NCBI GenBank assembly: GCA_963777505.1
Contig: CAVZQN010000011.1
Location: 96,001-160,000, forward strand
Length of the DNA: 64,000 bases
Origin: an uncultured bacterium
GTDB lineage: Bacteria; Acidobacteriota; HRBIN11; JAKEFK01
Reading direction: 5' to 3'
The notes below the pieces were generated by a model. The model ran no database searches, was not told the DNA's origin, and saw nothing but the letters and a program-made list of their open reading frames with translations. The position numbers were made by a program, and so were the translations under genes. Below, one piece after another: positions 104 to 17,923 of this stretch (its first letter is position 1; each line of letters begins with the position of its first letter).

Positions 104-1523
104 TTATGGAAAGATTCCTAATTCCAGGTACGATACCGCAACTTTATTGATTGCATTAACAAATGCTGCAGTACGCAGATTCGGAATGGTTTTGCTCTTG
201 ACCTTAATATCGCGGATCTGATGGTAGGCTGCTAACATCGTTTCTTCCAAACCTGAATTTACCAGATCCTCTTCATCAGCTCCCTTCGCTAGAAGTTTCT
301 TTTCTTCATCTGAAATCTTGGTACCTGTGGTTTTTTCAATGGCTCCCAGCAGCCTGGTTGCGGCTCATTTCATCAAACCGTTTTCCCATCCTTCCGAAGC
401 GTACATGTGACAGATTTTTCAGCCATTCAAAATAAGAAACTGTAACGCCACCTGCATTCAAATACAGATCCGGCACAATCAGAACTTTTTTCTCTTTAAG
501 GATCTGATCGGCTTCAAATGTTGTTGGGCCATTCGCGCCTTCGGCAATGATCCGTGCTTGAATTCTTGGTGCATTTTGAGCCGTGATTACATTTTCTAAC
601 GCAGCAGGAATCAGAATATCGCAAGGCTGTTCGAGCGCGTCTTTACTGTTTGGAATATTTGTGGCGCCTGGATAATTTAAGATTGAGCCAGTCTCTTTGC
701 GATGTTGTACAACCTTTTCAAGATCCAGGCCTTTTTCGTTGTAAATCGCGCCTTCATATTCAGCAAGTCCAACTAGAACGGAGCCGGCTTCCTGAAAGAA
801 CTTGGAGCAGTAATAGCCGACATTTCCAAGTCCCTGTACAATTACTTTTTTACCAGTGAGCCCTGGATCCATTCCAAGAGCTGTCATGTCCTCTTTGATG
901 GAGATACATTCACGAATTCCGAAAAATATTCCACGCCCTGTAGCTTCTTTTCTGCCACGAATTCCGCCTTGAGTGATCGGCTTTCCTGTGACGCAGCCAA
1001 GTGCATCGATATGTCCTGGATGAAATGAAGCATACGTATCAGCAATCCACGCCATTTCGCGCGGACCGGTTCCATAGTCAGGCGCCGGAACATCGATACC
1101 TGGACCAATAAAGTGTTTTTTTACGAGTTCTGCCGTGTAACGCCGTGTAATCCGTTCAAGTTGTTCATCCGAATACTTTTTAGGATTGATTTTGATGGCG
1201 CCTTTAGCTCCGCCAAAAGGAACATCAACAATTGCACATTTGTAAGTCATCAAAGATGCAAGCGCTTTCACTTCATCTTCATCAACAAGTTCCGCAAATC
1301 GAATGCCGCCTTTAACGGGAAGCTTATGGTGGCTATGTTCAACACGCCATGCATAAATAACTTCGTAGGTATCCCCCATTCTGACAGGGAATTTAAAGTG
1401 ATAAACGCTATTGCAAATTTTGATTTGATCCAGAAGTCCACGCGGATAATTTAGATGTGGAGCAGCGTTTTCAAAATAACGATCGACAGTGTCCAGGAAG
1501 GAAGAATTGGATGCATCAGACAT
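104..1523 (-). CDS. gdhA: Glu/Leu/Phe/Val dehydrogenase (glutamate dehydrogenase), frameshifted near 355
   Basis: Motifs [41 protein letters not shown]. The C-terminus (...[16 protein letters not shown]...YLELGIFP*) continues in another frame to TAA at 104-106. Confidence 0.9.
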
Positions 1524-1580
1524 TTCATTTCTCCTCTGAAATTGATCATACTCGAGCCTCGACTATTTGCAAAGCTTTAC

Positions 1581-1683
1581 GGAGCGCAGGCTTCCAGCCT
1601 GCATTACGGGTCGCGGACTTCCAGTCCGCTCATGCAGGCAAGGATGCCTGCGGCCCTTAATGCGGACAAGATGTCCGCGCTCC
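1581..1683. repeat. Cluster of four REP-like palindromes (GGAGCGCAGGCTTCCAGCCTGC type)
   Basis: Two hairpin units followed by two inverted units; the outer ends GGAGCGC...GCGCTCC are complementary. Confidence 0.75.
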
Positions 1684-1702
1684 GATATGTTATATTACAT
1701 CC

Positions 1703-2086
1703 ATGAAGGGAGCAGGTGGGACTCCGGGGGGCGTCAAAGTTTTCGTCGTCGGCACGATTATGGCCGTAATCGGCGGTTATCTTCTACTAAACCAGGTACG
1801 CGTACACTCCGGATTCTGGCGCTTCTTCAGCTACGGGAATTTTGGAATTGCGTTGCTTCCATTCCTGTTTGGAGTTGGTTTCCTCTTCTTCAATGGAAGG
1901 TCGATTCCCGGATGGATTCTCACAGTTGTGGGACTCTTGATTATTTTTACAGGCATCATTGCGAATCTGGAGATCTACTTTATTCCAACCAGTTTATTCA
2001 ATACGTTGCTGATGCTTGTGCTGCTTGTTGGAGGGATCGCCCTGGTTTTTCGATCGCTTCAATCTCAGGATAAATCGCAAACCTAA
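1703..2086 (+). CDS. Small membrane protein (about 4 TM), hypothetical
   Basis: 127-aa ORF with four hydrophobic Gly-rich segments; TG-n-TATATT lies 6 nt upstream of the ATG. Confidence 0.75.
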   Translation: MKGAGGTPGGVKVFVVGTIMAVIGGYLLLNQVRVHSGFWRFFSYGNFGIALLPFLFGVGFLFFNGRSIPGWILTVVGLLIIFTGIIANLEIYFIPTSLFNTLLMLVLLVGGIALVFRSLQSQDKSQT

Positions 2087-2877
2087 TCGAGCAATTTCAA
2101 TTCTTCTTTAAAAAATTCAGGGCTTGGCGAACTTAGTGTCTCCAGTGGTTCGAAGCGGATCCGAAATTTGCGATCTGCACTCTCTTTAACTTTTGAAAAT
2201 TTCATGCTTCCAACAGGTTGCCAATCGATCCAATCAAAGCTTCCTTTCTCTTTATCTTCCAATTCGAAATCCCAATGATCCATCAATTTTGTGGTTTTGT
2301 TGATGTGCGCCCAGTATTGATCGCCTGGAGTTTCGCCGACTTTATTAAAAGAAAGATGCAAAATATCGCGTCCATTTTTTTCGCCATCATATTTTAGATT
2401 GACGCCGCTATCCATAAGTTTAAGAGGCATAATCAGCCAGTAGGTATCATTGATCCAGCGGCTAAAGGCCCAATCGAGTGCCTTTTGTAGTTTTTCACCT
2501 TCAAGTTTTTGTCCATCTTCCCACGCAGCACCCGTTTTATTTGTAAGATTCACCCATGCAACCTGCACTTTTCCTTCACGAGTTTTGCCTTCGACATGAT
2601 CACGATTATTTTTGCGATCCCATAAATGCTTCACTGCTCTGGTTTCTTGACCTTCCGGTGCAACTACGAAATTAAAGCGGATTGCGGCTGTATTCTTCCA
2701 GGCGTCCATTCCGCCCATCGCTTTAATGGTTTCTTCTGCCAGTTTTACGGCTTTTGGATCTTTGTTATCCTGCGCAATTGCTTTATCAAAGTAAACCAGC
2801 ATGACGATCATTAAAACGAAAAACAAAACAAAAAGAGGCCAATTGATTTTTTTTGAATATCGAATGTCTTCAATCAT
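2083..2877 (-). CDS. Exported hypothetical protein (beta-rich; LolA-like/DUF6503-like)
   Basis: N-terminal hydrophobic signal with AIA-Q site; AMGGMDAW, WINDTYWLIMPLKL and TPGDQYW motifs. Confidence 0.7.
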   Translation of the reverse strand: MIEDIRYSKKINWPLFVLFFVLMIVMLVYFDKAIAQDNKDPKAVKLAEETIKAMGGMDAWKNTAAIRFNFVVAPEGQETRAVKHLWDRKNNRDHVEGKTREGKVQVAWVNLTNKTGAAWEDGQKLEGEKLQKALDWAFSRWINDTYWLIMPLKLMDSGVNLKYDGEKNGRDILHLSFNKVGETPGDQYWAHINKTTKLMDHWDFELEDKEKGSFDWIDWQPVGSMKFSKVKESADRKFRIRFEPLETLSSPSPEFFKEELKLLD

Positions 2878-2904
2878 GAGAATTCCTCCGGGACATGCGC
2901 GATT

Positions 2905-3477
2905 TTATTGCGTATTGGATTGCAATAAATCGAGCAAAGTTTTAACGATGCGGCCGGTGAGCCCCCAAATTGTATGGGAACGCCATTCGTAATAGTAAAC
3001 GGGGTACAGTTTTTGATCAATCACCCTTTCTTCCTGACGAAAAATTGCCGGATCTCTTAACTCACGCAATGGTACTTCCAGTAACTCTGCAACTTCTTCC
3101 GGATTTGCCCGAAACTCAGTTGCCGGAGACAACATTCCTATATACGGAACCACGAGAAAAGAACTACTGACCGTGCGCCAGTGTTCGAGCCGTCCTAAAA
3201 TTTCAACCCGTTCCGCCGGTACATCAACTTCTTCCTTCAATTCCCTTAAGGCTGTTGCCATCAAATCTGTGTCAATCGATTCCATGGTTCCGCCTGGAAA
3301 TGAGATTTCGCTGCTGTGATGCTGAAGATTTTCACTCCTGTGTGTGAACAGCAGATGCCATTCTCCATTCCGTTCAAAAAATGGAACAAGTACAGCTGCT
3401 AATGCACGACCTGGATCAGACAATTCTCCTGGAGGTTCTTGAATCAATTTCTGTCGCAAAAGTGAAGGCAATTCCAT
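2905..3477 (-). CDS. Nudix hydrolase, CoA pyrophosphatase family
   Basis: AAVLVP, LLFTHRS, ISFPGG...ALRELKEE Nudix box and IWGLTG. Start moved to the ATG at 3477 because the longer ORF runs through intergenic palindromes. Confidence 0.85.
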   Translation of the reverse strand: MELPSLLRQKLIQEPPGELSDPGRALAAVLVPFFERNGEWHLLFTHRSENLQHHSSEISFPGGTMESIDTDLMATALRELKEEVDVPAERVEILGRLEHWRTVSSSFLVVPYIGMLSPATEFRANPEEVAELLEVPLRELRDPAIFRQEERVIDQKLYPVYYYEWRSHTIWGLTGRIVKTLLDLLQSNTQ

Positions 3478-3489
3478 ATTGATTTGTTG

Positions 3490-3588
3490 AAGGCCCGGCC
3501 TTGCGGTAGTGGGGAGCGAAGGCCGGGCCTTTACACGTTCAATTTTGAGGCCGGGCTTTCGAACCCCACAGCCGCAAAGCCCGGCCTC
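3490..3588. repeat. Pair of inverted REP-like palindromes (AGGCCCGGCCTT family)
   Basis: AAGGCCCGGCCTT-n16-AAGGCCGGGCCTT (3490-3531) and GAGGCCGGGCTTT...AAAGCCCGGCCTC (3547-3588). Confidence 0.75.
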
Positions 3589-3609
3589 GATTAAGATTAC
3601 TATAGGAAT

Positions 3610-4618
3610 GTGATGAACATAACGCAAAAGCTCAAGCAGAAAGCTCTGGAGATCGGATTTTCGCGTGTTGGTATCTGTTCTGTCGGACCCGGAGACGAAG
3701 TAGGAAATTTACGCGATTGGATTTCCAAAGGCTTTCACGGGCAGATGAAGTATATGGAAAATTCCAAACGCATCTCACCACGCGAAGTCTTGCCATGGCT
3801 GTAATACTATGATAGTAGTACTATTAAATTACCGATGGACCGAGGGCGCGGATCAATCCCAGGAAGGCATGATCAGCAAATATGCATGGGCAACGGATTA
3901 TCATCGCGTTATGCTGCCGATGCTAGAGCAGCTTTCGGATTTTCTGCTGGAATTGGCTCCGCAAGCGGTGACAAAGGCGTATGTAGACACTGGCCCAATC
4001 TCAGAAAAATATTGGGCCCAGAAAGCTGGAGTCGGCTGGATTGGAAAACATACAAACGTTTTGAATCAAGAGGGCAGCTCCTGGTTTTTTATAGGCGTGA
4101 TTTTAACCGATCTTCAACTTGAACCGGATGCTCCGGCTGAAGATCACTGCGGAACCTGTGAACGTTGTATTGAGGCATGTCCGACGCGTGCGATCGTTGC
4201 GCCATATGTTCTTGATTCCCGTCTTTGCATTTCTTATCTAACAATTGAACTTCGTGAATCAATTCCTGTTGAATTGCGTTCTTTAATCGGACACCGGATT
4301 TTTGGCTGTGATGATTGTCAGGATGTTTGTCCCTGGAATCGATTTGCGTATGCTGGTGACCCGCGCTTTAATCCGCGTCCGGAAATCCTTGCTGCGACTT
4401 TAACTGAATATTTACGGATGTCACCCGAAGAGTTTCGGGATCGTTTTCAAGGAACAAATGTTTTGCGCGCAAAATATCGAGGTTTTATTCGAAATTGTCT
4501 TGTAGCAGCAGGAAATTCAAAGCGTCCTGAACTTCGAAATGAAATTGCGAAACATTTGGAATCGCAGGATGAAATGATACGTGAGCATGCGGAATGGGCG
4601 ATTGCCCAGTTGCTTTAA
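3610..4618 (+). CDS. queG: tRNA epoxyqueuosine(34) reductase, frameshifted near 3800
   Basis: N-terminal part (GFHGQMKYM) in 3610-3804; the remainder has ISKYAW..DYH, VDTGP, CGTCERCIEACPT and GCDDCQDVCPWN Fe-S motifs. Confidence 0.9.
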
Positions 4619-4636
4619 CCGCTGAGTCTCAGAGTG

Positions 4637-4960
4637 TTAATTGCCGGAGCGTTGTTCAAGATCAGGGTTGGCATTCTGAAAGAAGGCGCGCATCTGTTGA
4701 ACAAGAGCTTCATTTTTTATGCCTTGATGCTCTGCAGGATACCGGTCCAGATAGACACATGCGGTTCCGCAAACTTTATCGGCACCTTTTCTATTGCCTC
4801 GCTGTAGATGTGCAAGCGCCACAGCGCATTGAATCAAACCTTTATAAAAGTCCTTATCTTCGCCTACAGTCTCCAGCCAGAGCTGTTCTAAGACTTCATG
4901 CGCCTCATAAAACTCTTTTCTATTGAACAACGAAATAAACTCTTCTAATTCTGGTTCCAT
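4637..4960 (-). CDS. DUF309 family protein
   Basis: LFN..EFYEAHEVLEQLW and KGLIQCAVALAH signature. Confidence 0.8.
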   Translation of the reverse strand: MEPELEEFISLFNRKEFYEAHEVLEQLWLETVGEDKDFYKGLIQCAVALAHLQRGNRKGADKVCGTACVYLDRYPAEHQGIKNEALVQQMRAFFQNANPDLEQRSGN

Positions 4961-5009
4961 GGTAAGTTCTTAGTATAGTAATAGAAGTCGGTTTTTACTG
5001 GAATAAAGA

Positions 5010-7115
5010 GTGACAGACGAAGCCAAACCTCAAAGTTCCGATCAAGTCCGTTCATTTTGGCTTTATCCGCAATGGTGGAAACGAAGGCGCAGTTTTGATA
5101 CACGTCCTGTACTGTTATTGCTTGCTGCACTTGTTGGGGGTCTTGGCGGTCTTGCAGCAGTCCTGTTCAAAGATTTATCCAACACTGTGCAAGATGTGAT
5201 TATCGGATCGCAGCCTTCTTTCCTTGAAGCTTGTCTACGGCTGCCATGGTATTTGCGTTTACTGATTCCGACTGCCGGAGGATTACTCGCTGGTGGTGTC
5301 CTGTATCTTTTGCCAAAGGAAGGAAAGGGACATGGAATTTCAGAAGTTATGGAAGCGGTCAGTATTAGAGGGGGAGTGCTCAGTTTTCGCGTTGCAATCA
5401 TCCGTTCCTTTTCATCTTTGATGAGCATTGCAACAGGTGCATCGATCGGACGCGAAGGTCCCATTGTTCAGATTGCTGCAATGCTTGGTTCAAAAACCGG
5501 ACAATTCTTCCGCATCCAAAAAGAAAACATTAGCATTCTTGTCGGCTGTGGTGTTGCCGCAGGAATCGCTGCAGCGTATAACGTTCCGATTGCTGCATCG
5601 TTCTTTGTAATGGAAATTATCATTGGCAACTTCGCGATTGAAATTTTTGCACCACTTGTCGTTTCATCGATTGTTGCAACTCTTGTATACCGCCGCATTT
5701 TCGGAAATGAACCAGTTTATGGCACGCCTCATTTCAGTCTCGTGTCAGAATGGGAGCTCATTGCCTATGTTGTTTTAGGAATTCTTGCTGGAATCGCTGC
5801 AGCACTTCTGAGGGAATCATTAAAGCTTTCCGAACGTGAATTCGGCAGACGAAATGTTCCACTCATCGTGAAAAGCGGACTCGGTGGTTTGTTGATCGGC
5901 ATCATTGGCTTAGGCTGGCCGCATGTTTGGGGGAATGGTTATAACGCGATTAACACAATGCTTTTAAGCCAGATGGGTTTCAGTCTAATGCTTCTGCTTT
6001 TTTACCTGAAAATTATGGCAACAAGTATCAGCGTTGGATCGGGAGCATCTGGCGGTGTTTTTACACCGACTCAATTTATCGGAGCAGCGCTGGGGGGCTT
6101 TGTTGGATTTGCAGCGCATGAAGCTTTTCCAAATCATGTTGCGTTTTCAAGCGCGTATGCCCTTGTTGGTATGGGTTGTTTGATGGCCGGCACTACATAT
6201 GCGCCCATTATGTCGATTCTTATGGTTTTTGAAATGACGTTGGATTACGAAATTATTCTGCCGCTCATGCTGTCCTGCATCGTAAGCAGCATGGTGGCTC
6301 GTCAATTTCACCGGGATTCGATTTACACAGAAAAACTTCGCAAAAAAGGGATCCGTTTTGATCTTACGTTTGAAGAAAATGCGATGCGTGGAATCCGAGT
6401 GGAAGATATCTTGCGCAAGGAAGTTCCATTCATTCCAGGGAAAAAACATTTGAATGATGTTCTGAATCATTTCTTGCGATCTAGGACAAATCTTCTTTAT
6501 GTTGTAAATGACGATGGACGTTTGATTGGTTCAATCGATCTTCATGATCTGAAAGAGTTTTTTAATGAGAAGGATTTGTATTCTTTTGTAAATGCCCAAG
6601 ATGTTGCAACCCCCGTTACAGCAGTTTTTCCGGGGCAATCTTTAATCGATGTGATGGATACGCTCTACTTAACAGACGCGGATCAGATTCCTGTTGTGGA
6701 TAACAAAGACGACAATAAATTTTTAGGTGTGATCACCCGGCGTGACATTATCGGCGCTTATAACCGCGAAGTGTTGAAGAAAAAAATCCTGGCCACAAAG
6801 TTCATTACTCGTAAAAAGGAAAAAGAAGGTATCGACTACGTTGAAATGCCAGCCGGTTACAGGCTTGGTAAGATTGCAGTCCCTGAAGAACTGGAAAACA
6901 AGACTTTAGGCGAAGTAAATTTCCGCACGAAATATCATTTTCAAGTGCTTGCTCTGCTCCGCCAGTCTGGGGATGGAAAGAGCCAGCGGTTAATCGCCGA
7001 GCCACAATTAAGGTTGAACCGCGGAGATGAAATGATCGTCATTGGTACCGAGGACGATTTCGAACGCTTTCAGAAGAAAGAGATTAGTGTACTTTGTGTC
7101 TTTGTGGTGAAATAA
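5010..7115 (+). CDS. ClC chloride channel/antiporter with a CBS pair and C-terminal TrkA-C domain
   Basis: GHGISEV, GREGP and GGVFTP ClC motifs; CBS repeats; TrkA-C-like LNRGDEMIVIG. Confidence 0.9.
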   Translation: MTDEAKPQSSDQVRSFWLYPQWWKRRRSFDTRPVLLLLAALVGGLGGLAAVLFKDLSNTVQDVIIGSQPSFLEACLRLPWYLRLLIPTAGGLLAGGVLYLLPKEGKGHGISEVMEAVSIRGGVLSFRVAIIRSFSSLMSIATGASIGREGPIVQIAAMLGSKTGQFFRIQKENISILVGCGVAAGIAAAYNVPIAASFFVMEIIIGNFAIEIFAPLVVSSIVATLVYRRIFGNEPVYGTPHFSLVSEWELIAYVVLGILAGIAAALLRESLKLSEREFGRRNVPLIVKSGLGGLLIGIIGLGWPHVWGNGYNAINTMLLSQMGFSLMLLLFYLKIMATSISVGSGASGGVFTPTQFIGAALGGFVGFAAHEAFPNHVAFSSAYALVGMGCLMAGTTYAPIMSILMVFEMTLDYEIILPLMLSCIVSSMVARQFHRDSIYTEKLRKKGIRFDLTFEENAMRGIRVEDILRKEVPFIPGKKHLNDVLNHFLRSRTNLLYVVNDDGRLIGSIDLHDLKEFFNEKDLYSFVNAQDVATPVTAVFPGQSLIDVMDTLYLTDADQIPVVDNKDDNKFLGVITRRDIIGAYNREVLKKKILATKFITRKKEKEGIDYVEMPAGYRLGKIAVPEELENKTLGEVNFRTKYHFQVLALLRQSGDGKSQRLIAEPQLRLNRGDEMIVIGTEDDFERFQKKEISVLCVFVVK

Positions 7116-12635: not shown

Positions 12636-12880
12636 ATGCAAGAACAACACTAACGAGTAAAGGTCAAATTACACTCCCGAAAGATATCAGGCAGAAGCTT
12701 GAATTGGAGGCGGGCGATCAAATTGATTTTATTATCATGCCTGATGGCGATGTGTTCCTAAGACCTGCAAAATACGACATTCTGAAATTGGAAGGATCGC
12801 TTCAAAGCAAAAAAAGAAAACCGGTTACGATTGAGCAAATGAATGTTGCCGTCCGGGAGAGGATGAAGAAGTTTCGATGA
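12636..12880 (+). CDS. AbrB/MazE/SpoVT-family antitoxin (VapB-like); absent from the ORF track because of a 1-nt indel just after the ATG
   Basis: Reading frame RTTLTSKGQITLPKDIRQKLELEAGDQIDF...PVTIEQMN...KKFR*; its stop overlaps the toxin start (ATGA). Confidence 0.85.
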
Positions 12881-13265
12881 TAGGGCTGGATACGAATGTC
12901 ATAATCCGGTTTTTAGTTATGGATGATCCCACGCAAGCCAAGAAGGCATCGACACTGGTTCGAACGGCTCTTAAGAATCAAGAGGAATTGTTTATCGATT
13001 CCGTTGTTCTTTGTGAAATGGTTTGGGTACTTGAGGGAGCTATGAATTTGCGAAAGATGAAATCGCGGATGTATTGGAAAAAATAATGACTGAGCTGATC
13101 GCAATACAAGATCGTGATGAAGCCTGGCTGCATTGAATGACTATCGGCAAGGGCGGGCTGACTTTTCGATTATTACATTGGCAGGATCAACAAAAATTCC
13201 GGAGCGATTACACCGTGACTTTTGATCAGGAATTAAAAGAAAGCGACCTTTTTGTTCTGTTATGA
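12877..13265 (+). CDS. vapC: VapC PIN-domain toxin, with several indels in the 3' half
   Basis: MIGLDTNVIIRFL, VLCEMVWVL; downstream frames give YRQGRADF..YYIG and TVTFDQ.L. Confidence 0.8.
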
Positions 13266-13282
13266 ACTTTGCGCCTCTGCGG

Positions 13283-13809
13283 TTAAGGAATAGAACGGCA
13301 CCGCACCCGTTTTTTCTCAGGGTCCACACAAAAACACCAGCATCGACATCCTCTTTTGTTGGATCCAATACCATAGCAATGTGATGCTTATCATTGAAAT
13401 AATGCTCATCAATAAATTGGTCCGCAGAAGATAAAAACACTCCATAACCAGGATGTGTATGAAACCAACCGACAACTTTTTTGTCAGGAAACTGCGCAGT
13501 TAGATCATCGTGTATTTGTGCTTGCGCCTCATTGTTAAATTCGAATGATGCGCGGCGCGAAACACCTTTACGAGCCGGAATAAAATCATGAATCTCAACA
13601 AACCATCTTCGTGAAGCTCGCGCGATCCGTCCTACAAGCACTCCTCCCAATTCATAGCTTGTATCAGATGATGCATATTCGCGGATTCGATCCAGAGCAT
13701 TTTGGACGATGTAAACGACCAGCAGTTTCATCGGGTATTCGCGATCCACTTTTGATGGAAGCCGGCTTCGTTCTGTCTTTTGTTTTATTCGCCGGATCTT
13801 GATTTCCAT
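13283..13809 (-). CDS. JAB/MPN (Mov34) metallo-isopeptidase (deubiquitinase-like)
   Basis: ELGGVLVG and GWFHTHPGYGVFLSSAD (JAMM E...HxH-x7-S-x2-D). The true stop is probably TAA at 13283; the ORF-track extension to 13141 overlaps vapC. Confidence 0.9.
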
Positions 13810-14324
13810 TACTTCGCTTCCTTGCTGTCTTTATGAAGAATCTTAATAACCACTTTTCCAGCCTTATCACGAATCGGACGCGAATCGAGAGGAAACATGT
13901 GCAAATTAAAACGTGCCCATTCCGCCGCTTTTTTATCTAATGGCGATTGAAGATTGTATTTAACATAACGTGCCATATCAGCAAGCTCTGATACAAATTC
14001 GGCTAATGACCAGCTTGGCGCCCACTGTCCGCTGTGACAAACAGCTTGTAACTTAATGTTCGGATGAAAGATCGGACTTAACCACGTCACATCTGGCGGT
14101 TGAGATGGATATTGCGCGCCTAATACAATTTGACACTTGTGTTCTTGAATAATCGCTGGCTTTCCCGATCCATCAGACATAATTCCTGGACAAATAAAAC
14201 GGATCTGATATTGATTCGGGGGATTTCCTGATGCCGAAAAATCGATGATCGATGATTCAGTTTTCAGACGCAGCATCTCTTCAAAATCATTTTTCATCCG
14301 GATCTGTCTGCGATTCATTTTCAT
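13809..14324 (-). CDS. Ubiquitin-conjugating enzyme E2 (UBC fold)
   Basis: YPSQPP.V.WLSPIFHPNI....VC (HPN motif and catalytic Cys), WAPSWSL, YNLQSPLDKKAAEW; stop overlaps the JAB start (TAATG). Confidence 0.9.
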   Translation of the reverse strand: MKMNRRQIRMKNDFEEMLRLKTESSIIDFSASGNPPNQYQIRFICPGIMSDGSGKPAIIQEHKCQIVLGAQYPSQPPDVTWLSPIFHPNIKLQAVCHSGQWAPSWSLAEFVSELADMARYVKYNLQSPLDKKAAEWARFNLHMFPLDSRPIRDKAGKVVIKILHKDSKEAK

Positions 14325-14369
14325 TTCGTGAAGTAAAACGCCAATTATTTTGTTTGGTGTCTTTATCTT

Positions 14370-14651
14370 TTAGCGGTTGAGTTTTCCGGCAACAAACGTG
14401 GACGTCAACAAAAGTAAATCTCCGTTCTTTGTTGCGTATTCACCAAGTGTTTTGTTTTGCTTTAACTCCTGGCTGGTTCGTTTGTTTGAAAGCTGGTACG
14501 AGATCCGATTACCATCCGGTCCGACAAGAGGAAGCCCAAGTTGTTGCACCAACTGAGGCAACAAATCATCCAGCTTTGCGTCATCCGGCAATTCGACTTC
14601 GTATTCTTGATTTGTATCGGCGCGAACAACTGTAACGGTTATTTGTGACAT
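14370..14651 (-). CDS. Ubiquitin-like protein (EsaB/YukD beta-grasp) with C-terminal ...FVAG-KLNR
   Basis: Beta-grasp pattern ITVTVV..EYEVELP..LDDLLPQLVQQL..KTLGEY..KNGDLLLL; lies between the E1 and E2 genes. Confidence 0.85.
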   Translation of the reverse strand: MSQITVTVVRADTNQEYEVELPDDAKLDDLLPQLVQQLGLPLVGPDGNRISYQLSNKRTSQELKQNKTLGEYATKNGDLLLLTSTFVAGKLNR

Positions 14652-14691
14652 AGACGTTCAATGTATCATTTTTTACCGAAGAGTCACAGAG

Positions 14692-15828
14692 TTAATCCAA
14701 GACAAAAAATATTCGATCATTTTGAGTCTCAGCACAATAGATATGCTCCGATGGAAATCCCAATTCCCGAAAACTCTTGTTTCCCCAGCTTTCTGTACCT
14801 TCATAGGCAACAGCAATCTGAGGTTTGAAAACGCCTCCGCAATCGCAAAACGCCGAACCATTGTATAAGGATTGCGTTCCTGTAAATTCTTCATTTTTAC
14901 CGCATTGAATACACATTAAAGATGTCAGCAAATTTCGATCAAAGTCCCAGATCAATCGATCGGCATTCCATTCTTGTTTTGCAGCTTGAAGAACAGTTTG
15001 AATAGGATCACTTTGACGCACTCTCAATTGTTTTATTTCCCCAATCGGATCTGCGGATGCATGCAGTCCACAGTCTTCTGAAATTTCCAATGCTATGTCA
15101 AAGAAAACATCGCTTAAACCGTAAAGGCCAAGCCTTTTACCTGCGGGAACCTGCAATCCATGCAACTGCCTGACTCCAATCTGTACCTGAAGTGCTCCAA
15201 TAATGGATGCAATGGTTGGAGCAGTTGGTACATGTTGCTTAATTTCCGGATCCGTACTTTTTAGACATGAGATCCGTTTTTGAAGTTCCGCTCGATCGAC
15301 TCCGCTCAGAGTGCACTCATAACATGCCGTCGCCGGCGGCATAAATACCGAAACGGATCCATTTAGAGTGTCCAGGCCCCCGTCGATGAAAGGTTTTTTC
15401 AGAAAATATGCATATCGATTCATTGCATATCTCGCTTCACGATTGTCCAAACAGCCCAGGATTAAATCCATTTGCGATAAGAATCCGAATCCGAGATCGT
15501 AACGAACATCAATTCTTAACGGAACAAACGATGAATCGGGATTCATTTCAGAGGCACGAGCGGCAAGAACATCCGTTTTCCATTTTCCAACGTCATCGGC
15601 TCTAAAGAGTGCTGAGCGTGTCAGGTTTGTGGTCTCTATGCGGTCAAAGTCGACAATCCAAACTTTGCCAATTCCAAGCAGCGCAAGGTTTTTGACGACT
15701 TCATTTCCAAGAGCTCCAGCACCGACAACCAGAACGCGTGCGTGCTTTAGTTTTTCCTGATCCCACCAGCGAATTAATTTGAGCCGCTGATATCGATCCG
15801 TTTCAGGATCCGTTAGACGCAGCGTCAT
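14692..15828 (-). CDS. Ubiquitin-activating E1-like enzyme (ThiF/UBA3-like) with a C-terminal Zn/Ub-fold-like extension
   Basis: DRYQR, VVGAGALGNEVVKNLALLG, DFDRIETTNLTR, CLDNREAR, ACYECT...RISC (candidate catalytic Cys), CGLH, CIQC...CDC. Confidence 0.9.
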   Translation of the reverse strand: MTLRLTDPETDRYQRLKLIRWWDQEKLKHARVLVVGAGALGNEVVKNLALLGIGKVWIVDFDRIETTNLTRSALFRADDVGKWKTDVLAARASEMNPDSSFVPLRIDVRYDLGFGFLSQMDLILGCLDNREARYAMNRYAYFLKKPFIDGGLDTLNGSVSVFMPPATACYECTLSGVDRAELQKRISCLKSTDPEIKQHVPTAPTIASIIGALQVQIGVRQLHGLQVPAGKRLGLYGLSDVFFDIALEISEDCGLHASADPIGEIKQLRVRQSDPIQTVLQAAKQEWNADRLIWDFDRNLLTSLMCIQCGKNEEFTGTQSLYNGSAFCDCGGVFKPQIAVAYEGTESWGNKSFRELGFPSEHIYCAETQNDRIFFVLD

Positions 15829-16631
15829 AGCTGTGATTCTACCTGCTTTCGGACTTCATGTATTTCAGCTTCCATCGCTGAAAAACGTTGCTTAATTTTT
15901 TCCAAAGTAGCAGTTAGCTCATCCTCGCGCATACGAAAGTAGGTGTGATAATCGCGGCAGCATTCGTGCAGATCATGATCAATTTGAAACAGAAAATCGG
16001 AAAAAAGAATTCGGCCTGCAGGATTCCGTTTGTAAAAACTTTCAACAATTCTGTGGCCAATGAGTACAGTCTCAACCCATTTCAAACGCATGGCTGGACT
16101 TTGCAGTAATTTTGATACTGCGCGAACTTCCGATTGCGTAGAAGGAGACAAGAAAAAGGGAAGTGGTGCACCGGATTTAAATAGAGATGGTTTCGGTTTT
16201 CGAGTCAGCTTTTTTTTCTCATCTGGCTTAGTTTGAATCTCTGCCTCAACTTTTTCTGCAAGCAATACTTCCTTCCAATGCTGCAAAATAGAAGGATCGG
16301 TTTGCTCAATCATGGTCCAGGGTAGAGAGTGAAAAGCTTTCAGGTAGTCGTAATCCTTTCTTCCTGTCAGCGCTTGAAGTATGGACGCTACTTCTCCTAG
16401 ACGTCCCTCTGGAATTGAAAGGATCTTCAAATACGCAAGAGTCGGTTTTATCGCGGAAACTTCTCCAAGACACTGAGGGCAGTACCAATGATGTGCATGA
16501 TAACGATTGTGACAACTCTTGCAAGCAAATACTTGTATTTCACGGACTTCAATTGGAGGAGGTTCAACGGGCGATGTGCGGTTTGTAGAACGGCGTTTAA
16601 TGCGGACTTTAATACGATTCAAAAAACTCAT
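15825..16631 (-). CDS. Hypothetical protein: Zn-ribbon/RING-like motif, L7/L12-CTD-like segment and helical C-terminus
   Basis: ATG at 16631, 7 nt after the macrodomain stop; CKSCHNRYHAHHWYCPQC; stop overlaps the E1 start (ATGA). Confidence 0.75.
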   Translation of the reverse strand: MSFLNRIKVRIKRRSTNRTSPVEPPPIEVREIQVFACKSCHNRYHAHHWYCPQCLGEVSAIKPTLAYLKILSIPEGRLGEVASILQALTGRKDYDYLKAFHSLPWTMIEQTDPSILQHWKEVLLAEKVEAEIQTKPDEKKKLTRKPKPSLFKSGAPLPFFLSPSTQSEVRAVSKLLQSPAMRLKWVETVLIGHRIVESFYKRNPAGRILFSDFLFQIDHDLHECCRDYHTYFRMREDELTATLEKIKQRFSAMEAEIHEVRKQVESQL

Positions 16632-16638
16632 CGATATT

Positions 16639-17175
16639 TTACGAAGCTGCCTTAAAAATCCGCATTGCAGTTGTATTAAAAATTTTCTCGGCGGACTCAT
16701 CGAACAAACAAAATCGTATTTCTTGAAGCTTCGTTTCACCCTCACAATATTGATGAACGACTTGCAGCATAATTTCTGCACAGCGTTCCATAGGATAGCC
16801 GAATATTCCTGTGCTGATTGCTGGAAAACTAATAGTATGAATTGCTTCACTATCGGCTAAACGTAAGCTGTTTGAAGTGGCATTCCGAAGTTTTTCATCT
16901 TCATCCCCTTCGCCCATTCTTGGTCCAACCGCATGAATGATGTAAGGTGCTTTTAAATCTCCTCCGGTGGTTATGGCAGCACTCCCAACAGGAACGAATC
17001 CGACCCTGTCTGATTCATCCTGAATGATTTTACCCCCTTTACGAACAATGGCGGCTGCAACACCTCCGCCATGCTGAAGTTGAGAATTTGCAGCATTAAC
17101 GATGGCTCCAGTGTCTTCTTCAGTGATATCTGCACGCTTTACTATAATTGTAGTATTACCAGCCTGATAATTCAC
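16639..17175 (-). CDS. Macrodomain protein (MacroD/YmdB-like ADP-ribose hydrolase)
   Basis: ADIT, AIVNAAN, GGGVAAAI, IIHAVGP, ISFPAISTGIFGYP. Confidence 0.92.
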   Translation of the reverse strand: MNYQAGNTTIIVKRADITEEDTGAIVNAANSQLQHGGGVAAAIVRKGGKIIQDESDRVGFVPVGSAAITTGGDLKAPYIIHAVGPRMGEGDEDEKLRNATSNSLRLADSEAIHTISFPAISTGIFGYPMERCAEIMLQVVHQYCEGETKLQEIRFCLFDESAEKIFNTTAMRIFKAAS

Positions 17176-17195
17176 GAAAAAAAACCACCTTTCCC

Positions 17196-17858
17196 TTATC
17201 CTAACATAACTCTTTTTTTGCTCTTTTGTAGGTCTTTTGGGGCAATAAGTTGATCCAGCCGCAATCGGATCCGTTCAAGAGCCGTAACAGGAGTTTCCTG
17301 CAGATCCAACGATATGGCAGATTCAGGAATTTGAATTTTAGGATGATCGGATGTGCCTTTCTTTTTATTCAGGATAATGAAATTGGCTCCGTTCAGGATT
17401 TGTTCAGCATTATCTTTCCAACGCGATGGTGGAATGTTGTTTGCTGCAACATAAAACATCAGATCGGGTTTGCATATCGATGTAACTGTGCTTCCTTCCA
17501 TGATGGTCAAGGCATTTTTGGGAAGGTGTTCAATGAGATGTTGAAACGCTTCAGCAAGATATGATTTTCTGGAAATGATCCAAACCACTTCCTTTGCGCC
17601 TGCCGCAGCAAGTCGTTGCGTGTTTTTTCCTGATTGCATCAAAACTGCAGGATCGCGAACAATACGGAAGCGATCGGATAAATCGCAAACTGTACATGGT
17701 GCCCCGCGTGGACACGGAGATGGAATATCGGTGGTGGTTGTAAACTTTACCGCATACACGGGAATATTCTGGTCAGCGAAGTATCGGATTAATTGCTCCG
17801 CGAGCAAAGTTTTTCCAGCGCGGCTCGTTGCACCCGCAACGCTGATGATCCGAATGTC
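17196..17858 (-). CDS. MobB-like P-loop NTPase with a Cys cluster; start uncertain
   Basis: The frame upstream of the ORF-track start reads IRIISVAGATSRAGKTL (Walker A); CPRGAPCTVC; GKNTQRLAAAGA; IMEGS. Confidence 0.7.
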   Translation of the reverse strand, partial: DIRIISVAGATSRAGKTLLAEQLIRYFADQNIPVYAVKFTTTTDIPSPCPRGAPCTVCDLSDRFRIVRDPAVLMQSGKNTQRLAAAGAKEVVWIISRKSYLAEAFQHLIEHLPKNALTIMEGSTVTSICKPDLMFYVAANNIPPSRWKDNAEQILNGANFIILNKKKGTSDHPKIQIPESAISLDLQETPVTALERIRLRLDQLIAPKDLQKSKKRVMLG

Positions 17859-17923
17859 TTTGCGATTGTAGAGTTATTAGCTCATGGCGTTACCGGGGTG
17901 TCGATTTGAGTTCTTAGAGATAC

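What the first reader, a model, noticed from the sequence alone, without database searches (positions are those of the whole stretch)
13780..16631. Recurring basic beta-strand motif at protein termini: possible charge-reversed SIM-like Ubl-docking code
Seen: JAB starts MEIKIRRIKQK, E2 ends GKVVIKILHK, the Zn-finger protein starts NRIKVRIKRR, and E1 starts MTLRL. All lie outside the catalytic folds. The predicted second strand and helix of the Ubl are strongly acidic (QEYEVELPDDAKLDD). Established: SUMO-interacting motifs are short V/I-rich strands with acidic flanks that pair with a basic groove at SUMO strand beta2. Inference: the same docking mode may operate here with opposite charges, recruiting each component to the Ubl.
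Basis: inference. Interest (0 to 1): 0.72.

Follow-up and report, generated by a model that had tools for sequence, protein, structure and literature searches.

The report
Shared docking tails in bacterial ubiquitin operon
The enzymes of a bacterial ubiquitin-like operon all carry the same short charged strand at a free end, and its charge switches together with one face of the ubiquitin-like protein in related operons, which suggests a SUMO-style docking code that exists outside eukaryotes.

Summary
On the minus strand lies an operon: P-loop protein, Macro, zinc-ribbon protein, E1, Ubl, E2, JAB. The JAB N-terminus, the E2 C-terminal tail, the zinc-ribbon N-terminus and, more weakly, the E1 N-terminus carry an alternating aliphatic/basic strand. 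It is conserved in dozens of homologues. AlphaFold2 places the E2 and JAB copies outside the folds. In distant operons the motif changes its sequence in step between proteins. A sister operon family from metagenomes carries acidic, SIM-like tails on E2, E1 and JAB, and there the Ubl strand-2/helix-1 segment is basic instead of acidic. In an unbiased scan of 778 windows in the four shared proteins, that Ubl segment shows the largest compensating charge flip. I therefore read the tails as short linear docking motifs. Their most likely receptor is the Ubl beta2/alpha1 face, so this is a SIM-like mode in either polarity. Binding itself is not shown: the one co-folding job gave no verdict. An acidic strand in E1 is a rival receptor. 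My literature searches found no description of such a motif.

The parts
13141..13809 (-). JAB/MPN (Rpn11-like) peptidase gene. The ORF is 222 aa, but residues after about 164 deviate from a 99%-identical 183-aa homologue.
   Evidence: Pfam PF01398 3.4e-10 over residues 32-137. Closest solved chains are Rpn11 and the C. subterraneum Rpn11-like protein. The HxH...S..D motif is visible in the sequence. Comparison with P0001.
13783..13806 (-). JAB N-terminal strand motif, residues 2-9 (EIKIRRIK).
   Evidence: Conserved as x-I-[KR]-[IV]-[KR]-P in 78 of 89 hits by the strict pattern. pLDDT below 50 and coiled in the AF2 model.
13809..14324 (-). E2 (UBC-fold) gene with HPN...C active-site motif. Its stop overlaps the JAB start by one base.
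   Evidence: Pfam PF00179 1.4e-9. Profile hits to eukaryotic E2 structures. AF2 mean pLDDT 89.8.
13830..13856 (-). E2 C-terminal strand motif, residues 157-165 (KVVIKILHK).
   Evidence: The family consensus follows the core end FPLDxRPIRDK as xx[KR]hVI[KR]h[KR]. The 14 residues after the core end carry net charge +2 to +4 in 42 of 43 homologues. No secondary structure and pLDDT 76 to 43.
14370..14651 (-). Ubl precursor of 93 aa. The mature end is predicted at ..TSTFVAG, followed by KLNR.
   Evidence: Pfam YukD 2.8e-12 over residues 4-82. All 69 homologues share ..TSTFVAG followed by a variable extension.
14565..14618 (-). Ubl acidic segment, residues 12-29 (DTNQEYEVELPDDAKLDD). It is the proposed receptor face (strand 2 plus the start of helix 1).
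   Evidence: Net charge -5 to -7 in 69 of 69 homologues. Rank 1 and 2 of 778 windows for the compensating charge flip against the acidic-tail family.
14692..15828 (-). E1 (ThiF/MoeB-type adenylating enzyme with a Cys-rich C-terminal part). Its ATGA overlaps the stop of the upstream gene.
   Evidence: Pfam PF00899 6.5e-51 over residues 16-227. NCBIfam hits all lie below their cut-offs.
15811..15828 (-). E1 N-terminal motif, residues 1-6 (MTLRLT).
   Evidence: MT[LI]R[LI][TS] in 7 of 7 family genomes. It aligns with the acidic LTFLDD and hh[IV]DDxD motifs of acidic-type E1s.
15825..16631 (-). Zinc-ribbon protein of 268 aa that belongs to no described family.
   Evidence: No Pfam, PADLOC or NCBIfam hit. 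27 relatives among 1.84 billion representatives. C-x2-C-x10-CPQC is invariant.
16590..16619 (-). Zinc-ribbon protein N-terminal strand motif, residues 5-14 (NRIKVRIKRR).
   Evidence: The strand is present in 21 of 22 rows of alignment A4 and is followed by a linker of variable length.
16639..17175 (-). Macro-domain protein, conserved upstream member of the operon. It carries no tail motif.
   Evidence: Pfam PF01661 1.2e-37. Present next to ZnF-E1 in relatives.
17196..17873 (-). P-loop (GATSRAGKT) protein of unknown family, first gene of the operon. It carries no conserved tail motif.
   Evidence: Homologues in L027, L028 and L032. No family hit.

Best explanation
The terminal strands are short linear docking motifs that the E1, E2, JAB peptidase and zinc-ribbon protein of one Ubl cascade share. 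Each is a flexible, amphipathic strand of 5-7 residues with aliphatic residues alternating with K/R.

I infer that it adds as an extra strand to the exposed edge of Ubl strand 2. Its aliphatic face would sit in the groove between strand 2 and helix 1. Its basic face would pair with E16/E18/E20 and D23/D24/D28/D29. This is the SUMO-SIM mode with the charges reversed.

The catalytic domains would hold the opposite face and the C-terminal tail of the Ubl. The tails would add affinity and specificity, and perhaps let the enzymes recognise Ubl already attached to a target.

Shown: the motif exists, is conserved, lies outside the folds, co-varies between proteins of one operon, and has the opposite charge to the Ubl segment across families.

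Inferred: the receptor, the strand pairing and the functional effect.
For: 1. Conservation. The motif is kept in JAB, E2 and ZnF homologues down to 35-55% identity. It persists in genus g2, where the operon is split in two.
2. Free ends. The E2 tail and JAB residues 1-9 have low pLDDT and no secondary structure.
3. Same motif in different proteins of one operon, changing together. In family f48 the E2 tail reads HTFVIKRV or HTFVIKQV and the JAB N-terminus reads MTFVIKKV or MTFVIKNV. In L034 two proteins end in ITFKP.
4. Natural charge swap, from 80 metagenome loci. 65 of 79 E2 ORFs end in [DEQ][DEQ]hhFh[DE]; 12 more are near variants and 2 are unlike. 15 of 20 JABs carry the full pattern with the following h[KRQ]Y, and 17 of 20 its D/E-hhF-D/E core. 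16 of 25 E1s carry hxF[LI]D[DEG] and 20 of 25 carry hh[IV]D[DE]xDRY. In these operons the Ubl segment has net charge +1 to +2 (65 ORFs), against -5 to -7 in 69 of 69 relatives of the window Ubl. Tail charges are quantified.
5. Unbiased scan. Of 778 nine-residue windows in Ubl, E2, E1 and JAB, the largest flip of the sign expected for a receptor is Ubl DTNQEYEVE versus TGAKSVKAV (+5.94). The second is the adjacent Ubl window. The tails themselves appear among the largest flips of the opposite sign.
6. Further lineages, counted by hand from the sequences printed. 9 of 10 scorable lineages have opposite signs for the Ubl segment and the E2 tail. Within one subgroup, L038 scores -5/+3 and L035 scores +1/-2. 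Family f48 has the Ubl KEVEVTVSDD in 5 of 5 genomes with basic tails.
7. The tails resemble the Ubl's own strand 1 (VTFLD versus LTFLD; ITFRN versus TFVIK). This is expected if both pair with strand 2. It is my inference.
Against: - No binding or structural evidence exists.
- The two large families amount to one evolutionary contrast. The hand tally is small, several entries have a charge of only 1, the L035-L155 lineages are related to each other, and L039 is not complementary (-2/-1).
- The f48 Ubl lies about 540 kb from the E2-JAB pair, so their pairing is assumed.
- Other surfaces flip too: the JAB hairpin RIARASRRW versus KLDEAAGTP (-5.41), the JAB Ins-1-like loop, and the E1 strand DIALEISED versus STKLPFKDD (+3.83; only 4 basic-type E1s). 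The Ubl flip could therefore answer to catalytic-domain contacts rather than to the tails.
- The acidic-type JAB keeps a basic h-K-h-R-x-P stretch just after its acidic motif. Part of the JAB extension is thus ancestral and does not swap.
- The window E2 motif (VVIKILHK) and the E1 motif (TLRLT) are imperfect copies.
Confidence: 0.5

Rival explanations
1. The tails are docking motifs, but the receptor is another component of the cascade. The most likely one is the acidic amphipathic strand just after the adenylation domain of E1 (..DVFFDIALEISED..) or the C-terminal domain of E1. The tails would then assemble E2, JAB and the zinc-ribbon protein on an E1 hub.
For: The E1 window DIALEISED versus STKLPFKDD ranks 4th of 778 for the receptor-type flip (+3.83). 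In eukaryotes E1s recruit E2s through a C-terminal ubiquitin-fold domain (recalled). The C-terminus of E1 here has a beta-grasp-like ending that is shared across lineages.
Against: The flip is smaller than in the Ubl. In the acidic-tail family the E1 segment is about neutral (+0.33), not basic. E1 carries a tail motif of its own, which fits a common external receptor better. Only 4 basic-type E1 sequences were available.
Confidence: 0.2
2. There is no specific strand docking. The tails are charged, disordered appendages that follow a general electrostatic co-adaptation between the enzymes and the Ubl (long-range steering), or they bind something outside the operon such as nucleic acid, membrane or targets.
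For: Catalytic-core surfaces of JAB flip charge in the same direction as the tails. Basic amphipathic strands often bind acidic lipids or nucleic acids (general knowledge).
Against: The hydrophobic positions alternate strictly and are conserved. Near-identical sequences occur in two proteins of one operon (TFVIK[KR]V; ITFKP). This points to a shaped site rather than bulk charge. The acidic-tail family would not bind nucleic acid or acidic membranes.
Confidence: 0.12
3. The strands are intramolecular structural elements of each protein: an extra edge strand of the MPN, UBC and zinc-ribbon folds.
For: Residues 11-30 of the JAB extension are modelled with pLDDT 82-93 against the MPN domain. The zinc-ribbon protein has a second, similar strand (IEVREIQVF) that leads into the ribbon.
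Against: JAB residues 1-9 and the E2 tail have low confidence and no strand assignment. In the acidic family the motifs sit at the end of low-complexity linkers of 40-100 residues. The linker after the ZnF motif varies in length.
Confidence: 0.05
4. Chance, or a nucleotide-level bias (A/T-rich codons near gene starts, ribosome-binding sequence in the overlap), produces K/I-rich ends with no function for the protein.
For: The genes overlap or abut. Lys and Ile codons are A/T-rich, and such codons are common at 5' ends (general knowledge).
Against: One copy is at a C-terminus. K/R and I/V/L interchange freely while the pattern is kept over 35-90% identity. The acidic family shows the same architecture with D/E. 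The background rate is 42 of 4471 ORFs.
Confidence: 0.03

Closest known systems
SUMO-interacting motifs (SIMs) binding the beta2/alpha1 groove of SUMO
   Same: A short aliphatic strand in a disordered extension, flanked by charges complementary to the Ubl strand-2/helix-1 face. SIMs occur on E1 (SAE2), on proteases (SENPs) and on E3s, and SIM binding is compatible with catalytic-domain binding (passages of PMC12687455). The acidic-tail sister family (..DEEIVFLD, DDIVFDE; Ubl ..KSVKAVI..) even has the SUMO polarity.
   Different: The system is prokaryotic. The Ubl matches Pfam YukD and only weakly matches the C. subterraneum ubiquitin; it is not SUMO. In the window the polarity is reversed (basic motif, acidic face). 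The E2 itself carries the motif. Binding is not demonstrated. The review states that none of the prokaryotic systems found so far shares the SIM-binding groove.
Caldiarchaeum subterraneum-type 'eukaryote-like' ubiquitin operons (Ub, E1, E2, small RING finger protein, Rpn11-like JAMM). Related operons are reported in Actinobacteria, Planctomycetes and Acidobacteria.
   Same: The operon holds a ThiF-type E1, a UBC-fold E2 that matches eukaryotic E2s, an Rpn11-like JAMM, and a Ubl precursor with a C-terminal extension after the terminal glycine. Related bacterial operons are mentioned in passages of PMC4197634. The archaeal cascade and Rpn11 processing are characterised in PMC5654768 (outline and abstract) and PMC6043591 (passages).
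   Different: No RING finger was detected; there is instead a four-Cys zinc-ribbon protein of no described family. The Ubl ends in AG, not GG. Macro and P-loop genes are added. In the solved archaeal Rpn11-like chain 6fjv_A the match begins at chain residue 12, against residue 34 here. That construct therefore has no comparable N-terminal extension. None of the passages I read in these papers mentions a terminal motif.
Bacterial antiphage ubiquitination-like systems (type II CBASS Cap2/Cap3, Bil, Bub)
   Same: E1, E2, JAB or another peptidase and a Ubl are encoded together in bacteria (abstract of PMC11601596; search listings).
   Different: PADLOC models gave only partial E1 matches (the best was 1.3e-20 over residues 15-146; BilD 1.5e-7) and generic JAB matches. 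E2, Ubl and ZnF gave none. E1 and E2 are separate proteins, and the E2 matches the eukaryotic UQ_con family.

Membership tests
SIM-type docking (works-like test) | Short core of 3-4 aliphatic residues in an extended, disordered segment outside folded domains | tested here: met
   Sequences. Low pLDDT and no secondary structure for the E2 tail and JAB residues 1-9. Variable linker after the ZnF motif.
SIM-type docking (works-like test) | Charges flanking or alternating with the core are complementary to the Ubl strand-2/helix-1 face | tested here: met
   Ubl segment -5 to -7 with tails +2 to +4 in the window's family. Ubl +1 to +2 with tails about -3 to -4 in the sister family. Rank 1 of 778 in the flip scan. 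9 of 10 lineages by hand tally.
SIM-type docking (works-like test) | The motif binds as an added beta-strand next to strand 2 of the Ubl | not testable with these tools
   One co-folding job was run and gave no verdict. This needs NMR, ITC or a structure.
SUMO/SIM system proper (membership) | The modifier is a SUMO-family protein of eukaryotes | tested here: not met
   The Ubl matches Pfam YukD. Its only PDB sequence matches are weak ones to the archaeal ubiquitin-like protein (E 0.016-0.063). The genome is bacterial (titles).
Caldiarchaeum-type eukaryote-like ubiquitin operon | ThiF-type E1, UBC-fold E2 with HPN...C, Rpn11-like JAMM with HxH...S..D, and a beta-grasp Ubl precursor, encoded together | tested here: met
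   Pfam matches. PDB matches to Rpn11 and eukaryotic E2s. Motifs visible. Overlapping genes.
Caldiarchaeum-type eukaryote-like ubiquitin operon | Small RING-finger E3 in the operon | tested here: not met
   The only zinc protein has four conserved Cys (C-x2-C-x10-C-x2-C) and no Pfam match. Atlas leads point to zinc ribbons and an L7/L12-like domain at scores 0.77-0.80, which are leads only.
Bil / Bub / type II CBASS defence systems | Proteins match the system-specific PADLOC models (E1-E2 fusion or BilA-D set) | tested here: not met
   Only partial E1 and generic JAB matches. No hit for E2, Ubl or ZnF.

The most novel reading that the evidence does not exclude
Recognition of the Ubl strand-2/helix-1 groove by short strands on E1, E2, protease and accessory proteins is not a SUMO invention. 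It is an old, pre-eukaryotic or repeatedly evolved feature of E1-E2-JAMM cascades. In bacteria it works as a programmable electrostatic address code: basic tails with an acidic Ubl, acidic tails with a basic Ubl, each family with its own core sequence that mimics Ubl strand 1. The code keeps each cascade matched to its own Ubl and holds the whole enzyme set on the modifier.
Probability: 0.3. Interest if true: 0.85.

Novelty: new variant of a known kind. Interest (0 to 1): 0.68.

Why it matters
A 2025 review of SUMO-enzyme contacts says that none of the prokaryotic ubiquitin-like systems found so far shares the SIM-binding groove, and that such systems could show how SUMO and ubiquitin signalling diverged (passages of PMC12687455).

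Here two sister operon families appear to use a SIM-like strand on E1, E2 and the JAMM peptidase, one in the SUMO polarity and one reversed. If this is confirmed, three things follow:
- A small bacterial model for SIM-type recognition becomes available.
- Non-covalent 'reader' motifs are placed among the ancestral features of E1-E2-DUB cascades.
- A simple rule, charge plus core sequence, would predict which enzymes serve which Ubl in genomes with several cascades.

The idea is directly testable with four peptides and one 89-residue protein.

Tried and rejected
- Co-folding. Complex prediction was run on the mature Ubl (residues 1-89, alignment A3) with residues 1-30 of the zinc-ribbon protein (alignment A4). 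The scores were 0.19 and 0.20, under the mark of 0.32, and the controls were not run. The result is no verdict, neither for nor against binding.
- Other motif bearers. A genome-wide look for further proteins with the strict motif at an end gave 7 ORFs. The four I checked are ordinary proteins in which the match lies within or next to a folded or membrane part: a YcaO protein with a wHTH domain, a penicillin-binding protein, a kinase with a PDZ domain, and one protein with no family. They give no sign of extra 'readers'.
- Macro and P-loop proteins. They do not carry a conserved tail. The RIRLRL near the C-terminus of the window's P-loop protein is absent from its homologues.
- E3-like gene in the acidic-tail operons. 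The genes between E1 and JAB there look to me, by recalled family features, like inserted Uma2-type endonuclease genes and have no motif. I ran no family search on them.
- Wider sampling. The second phylum search with an E2 profile added only two genomes. The class search around G081 added four.
- PADLOC and NCBIfam gave no system-level name. The Atlas gave only weak leads for the zinc-ribbon protein.
- Chance statistics with a pattern widened after the fact to include the E2 copy (third pattern) are not a fair test, and I do not use them.
- Literature. Five searches and passages of four papers turned up no description of these terminal motifs. Supplementary files were not opened, and subscription papers are not covered. 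An earlier description, for instance in comparative-genomics work on prokaryotic RING and Ub operons, therefore cannot be excluded.

Full report
**What is there.** Positions 13141-17873 of the window carry, on the minus strand, seven tightly packed genes. In order of transcription they are:
- a P-loop protein (GATSRAGKT; no family hit)
- a Macro-domain protein (PF01661, 1.2e-37)
- a 268-aa zinc-ribbon protein with no family hit
- a ThiF-type E1 (PF00899, 6.5e-51)
- a 93-aa Ubl (PF08817 YukD, 2.8e-12)
- a UBC-fold E2 (PF00179, 1.4e-9)
- a JAB/MPN peptidase (PF01398, 3.4e-10)

The ZnF stop overlaps the E1 start (ATGA), and the E2 stop overlaps the JAB start by one base. The nearest solved relatives are Rpn11, the Rpn11-like protein and ubiquitin-like protein of Caldiarchaeum subterraneum, and eukaryotic E2s. 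Defence-system models gave only partial E1 and generic JAB matches. The operon is therefore a bacterial relative of the 'eukaryote-like' archaeal ubiquitin operons. A 2014 review notes that related operons occur in Actinobacteria, Planctomycetes and Acidobacteria (passages). The closest public contigs are soil MAGs, one of them labelled Acidobacteriota. An E2 relative was found in 6 of 6 other genomes of the same family and in 23 of 401 genomes sampled from the phylum.

**The observation.**
- JAB: MEIKIRRIKQK at residues 1-11
- E2: GKVVIKILHK at residues 156-165, followed by six more residues
- ZnF: MSFLNRIKVRIKRR from the ATG at 16631
- E1: MTLRLT
- Ubl: QEYEVELPDDAKLDD at residues 15-29

The pattern [IV][KR][IV][KR] within 20 residues of an end occurs in 42 of 4471 crude ORFs of the genome. 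Two of the five operon proteins match it as they stand.

**Conservation.**
- JAB: among 89 homologues, 78 have h[KR]h[KR] in the first 30 residues. The misses are four with one polar substitution in the same strand, three fragments or mis-started ORFs, and four distant proteins. The whole 26-residue extension reads x-I-[KR]-[IV]-[KR]-P-[IV]-x-x-K-x-E-K-x-[KR]-L-P-x-[KR]...Y-P.
- E2: among 52 homologues, 32 match strictly in the last 30 residues. Nine more basic-type proteins keep the strand with a polar substitution (for example VVIKVTPR, TIRVSPK). One has the strand further from its end, one is a fragment, and nine belong to other subfamilies.
- ZnF: it has only 27 relatives among 1.84 billion cluster representatives. 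In alignment A4, 21 of 22 rows carry K-h-K-h-R-h-R near the start, followed by a linker of variable length and the invariant C-x2-C-x10-CPQCLG ribbon.
- E1: it starts MT[LI]R[LI][TS] in 7 of 7 genomes of the family.
- Genus g2: the operon is split there into Macro-ZnF-E1 and Ubl-E2-JAB at different places, and all motifs are kept.

**Outside the folds.** AlphaFold2 with family alignments gives a confident UBC core for E2 (mean pLDDT 89.8). The mean pLDDT of residue blocks 151-160, 161-170 and 171 is 76, 63 and 43, with no secondary structure after residue 139. For JAB I modelled P0001, which is identical to the window protein over residues 1-163. Residues 1-9 are below pLDDT 50 and coiled, while residues 11-30 are at 82-93 and so seem to pack on the MPN domain. 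The shared strand is thus a free end in both models.

**Co-variation between proteins of one operon.** In distant operons of the phylum the motif has another sequence, but that sequence is again shared:
- In family f48 the E2 tail reads ..HTFVIKRV.. or ..HTFVIKQV.., and the JAB starts MTFVIKKV or MTFVIKNV.
- In L034 a Ubl-E2 fusion ends ..VRITFKPIDRV, and a neighbouring 228-aa protein ends ..RAITFKPVPP...
- The L038 E2 ends ..TVQVRIRPLK...

Two unrelated folds carrying nearly the same heptapeptide at a free end is what a common docking site predicts.

**A natural charge swap.** Some E2 hits at 42-44% identity end in ..DEEIVFLD. A metagenome scan with these gave 80 loci with the gene order Ubl-E2-E1-JAB.
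- E2: 65 of 79 ORFs end in [DEQ][DEQ]hhFh[DE]. Twelve more are near variants and two are unlike. Many have a second alternating acidic strand upstream (..ILDLEVD..).
- JAB: 15 of 20 carry the full pattern [DEG][DE]hhF[DE][DE]h[KRQ]Y near the start. 17 of 20 carry its [DE]hhF[DE][DE] core.
- E1: 16 of 25 carry hxF[LI]D[DEG], and 20 of 25 carry hh[IV]D[DE]xDRY directly before the first helix of the adenylation domain.
- These E1 motifs align with MT[LI]R[LI]T.PE.DRY of the window's family. This brings the weak E1 motif into the set.
- The Ubl reads ..IQVTFLDQTGAKSVKAVIAFSVPVSRILP.. in these loci.
- The segment that is DTNQEYEVELPDDAKLDD in the window has net charge -5 to -7 in 69 of 69 relatives of the window Ubl. 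It has +1 to +2 in 65 Ubl ORFs of the acidic-tail family.
- The tail charges run the other way. E2 tails are +2 to +4 (42 of 43) against a mean of -3.1 (79 ORFs, range -5 to +3). JAB strands are +1 to +5 (77 of 83) against -4 (17 of 20).

**An unbiased test of the receptor.** I aligned the two families for each of the four shared proteins and scored every nine-residue window present in both. There were 778 windows, each scored by the difference in mean net charge. The largest flip of the sign expected for a receptor of the tails is Ubl DTNQEYEVE versus TGAKSVKAV (-3.96 against +1.98). The second is the adjacent Ubl window YEVELPDDA versus VKAVIAFSV, and two more Ubl windows over helix 1 are in the top 11. 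Other high windows are a JAB strand near the C-terminus (+4.11), an E1 strand DIALEISED versus STKLPFKDD (+3.83) and an E2 loop (+3.66). Among the largest flips of the opposite sign are the JAB N-terminus (-3.96) and the E2 tail (-3.11), as expected. The JAB hairpin RIARASRRW versus KLDEAAGTP (-5.41) and the loop PARKGVSRR (-3.39) also appear there. The catalytic core of JAB has adapted too, however, and E1 offers a second candidate site.

**Other lineages.** The first figure is the Ubl segment equivalent to window residues 12-29. The second is the E2 tail around its hydrophobic strand.

| Lineage | Ubl segment | E2 tail | Note |
|---|---|---|---|
| Window family | -7 | +2 | |
| Acidic-tail family | +2 | -3 | |
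| f48 | -5 | +2 | Ubl KEVEVTVSDD in 5 of 5 genomes, encoded next to a second E1 far from E2-JAB |
| L036 | +2 | -1 | JAB start MDWQELESLQPE scores -4 |
| L034 | -1 | +2 | |
| L158 | -3 | +1 | |
| L038 | -5 | +3 | |
| L035 | +1 | -2 | |
| L155 | -1 | +2 | |
| L039 | -2 | -1 | Not complementary |

L037 and L044 have no recognisable tail strand. Nine of ten scorable lineages therefore have opposite signs. Several values are small, however, and L035, L038, L039 and L155 are related to one another. The contrast between L038 and L035 within that one subgroup is the most telling.

**Mechanism proposed.** The Ubl segment has the canonical beta-grasp pattern: strand 1 (..ITVTVVRA), a turn, strand 2 (EYEVEL), then P-D-D and helix 1. 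This assignment is inferred; I made no model of the Ubl. In beta-grasp modifiers strand 2 is an edge strand, and SUMO binds SIMs there as an added strand (passages of PMC12687455). In EYEVEL the acidic and hydrophobic residues alternate. In IKVRIK and IRIKP the basic and aliphatic residues alternate. The two can pair as neighbouring strands, with salt bridges on one face and aliphatic contacts in the groove on the other. The tails also resemble the Ubl's own strand 1 (VTFLD against LTFLD; ITFRN against TFVIK). This fits a strand that flanks strand 2 on its free side. According to the same review, the SUMO E1 subunit SAE2 and the SENP proteases carry SIMs on flexible extensions, and SIM binding is compatible with binding by the catalytic domains. 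The layout here is parallel to that: the motif sits on E1, E2, the JAMM peptidase and an accessory protein. I put the probability of the Ubl face as receptor at about 0.5. I put the probability that the tails are real docking motifs of some kind at about 0.85.

**What speaks against it.**
- Nothing here shows binding.
- The acidic-type JAB keeps a basic V-K-Y-R-E-P stretch right after its acidic motif. Part of the JAB extension is therefore ancestral and does not swap.
- The E1 acidic strand and the adapted JAB core allow other readings.
- The two big families are one evolutionary contrast.

**Novelty.** The operon type is known. I found no description of a shared terminal motif, its co-variation or the charge swap with the Ubl face in five full-text searches or in the passages I read. 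The 2025 review states that none of the prokaryotic systems discovered so far shares the SIM-binding groove. Supplements and subscription journals were not covered. I rate this a new variant of a known kind of interaction, in a known kind of operon, supported by comparative sequence evidence only.

Noticed in passing
window 13141-13340 (minus), around the C and A runs near 13316-13332: The window JAB ORF (222 aa) departs after residue 164 from a 99%-identical 183-aa homologue. The homologue-like ending (..EKTGAVPFYSL..) is readable in another frame after a stop. This looks like a frameshift at homopolymer runs: either an assembly error or a real lesion in the C-terminus of JAB.
   Followed up: partly
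window 17196-17873 (minus): The first operon gene encodes a P-loop protein (..ISVAGATSRAGKT..) with no family hit. The open frame holding the P-loop has no ATG, GTG or TTG upstream of it, so the start codon is unusual or the 5' end is damaged. Homologues start M-K-F-I-S-V-A-G.
   Followed up: partly
window 15825-16631 (minus): The zinc-ribbon protein has only 27 relatives among 1.84 billion cluster representatives. Its middle part gave weak Atlas leads (scores 0.77-0.80) to zinc ribbons and to ribosomal L7/L12-like domains. Its role (E3, adaptor or reader) is open.
   Followed up: partly
L029-L031 and L163, L164, L166 (genus g2); L027 3884-4713; L032 5830-7508: In one genus the operon is split into Macro-ZnF-E1 and Ubl-E2-JAB at separate places. 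In two other genomes 0.8-1.7 kb lie between E1 and Ubl. The tails are kept in all of them.
   Followed up: partly
L034 (G064) 1044-6771: This is a different architecture. It has a Cys/His-rich protein, E1, a protein whose N-terminus looks TIR-like to me (no family search run) with Ubl-like C-terminal domains, a 228-aa protein, a Ubl-E2 fusion with ..ESIAG at the junction, and a long JAB. Two of the proteins end in ITFKP.
   Followed up: no
L048, L049, L055-L057, L061, L063 between E1 and JAB: The acidic-tail operons carry one to three tandem genes between E1 and JAB. They have a ..PELV[IV]E[IV].. motif that I recall from Uma2-family endonucleases. I ran no family search on them.
   Followed up: no
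P0210, P0216, P0225: Some close Ubl homologues continue after ..TSTFVAG into a domain of about 60 residues with Pfam PF24192. They are Ubl precursors fused to a further domain.
   Followed up: no
window 12704-13086 (plus): Just downstream of the operon lies a small pair of ORFs that, from recall, look like an AbrB/SpoVT-type antitoxin and a PIN-domain toxin. The second ORF is short (69 aa) and may be truncated. I ran no family search on them.
   Followed up: no
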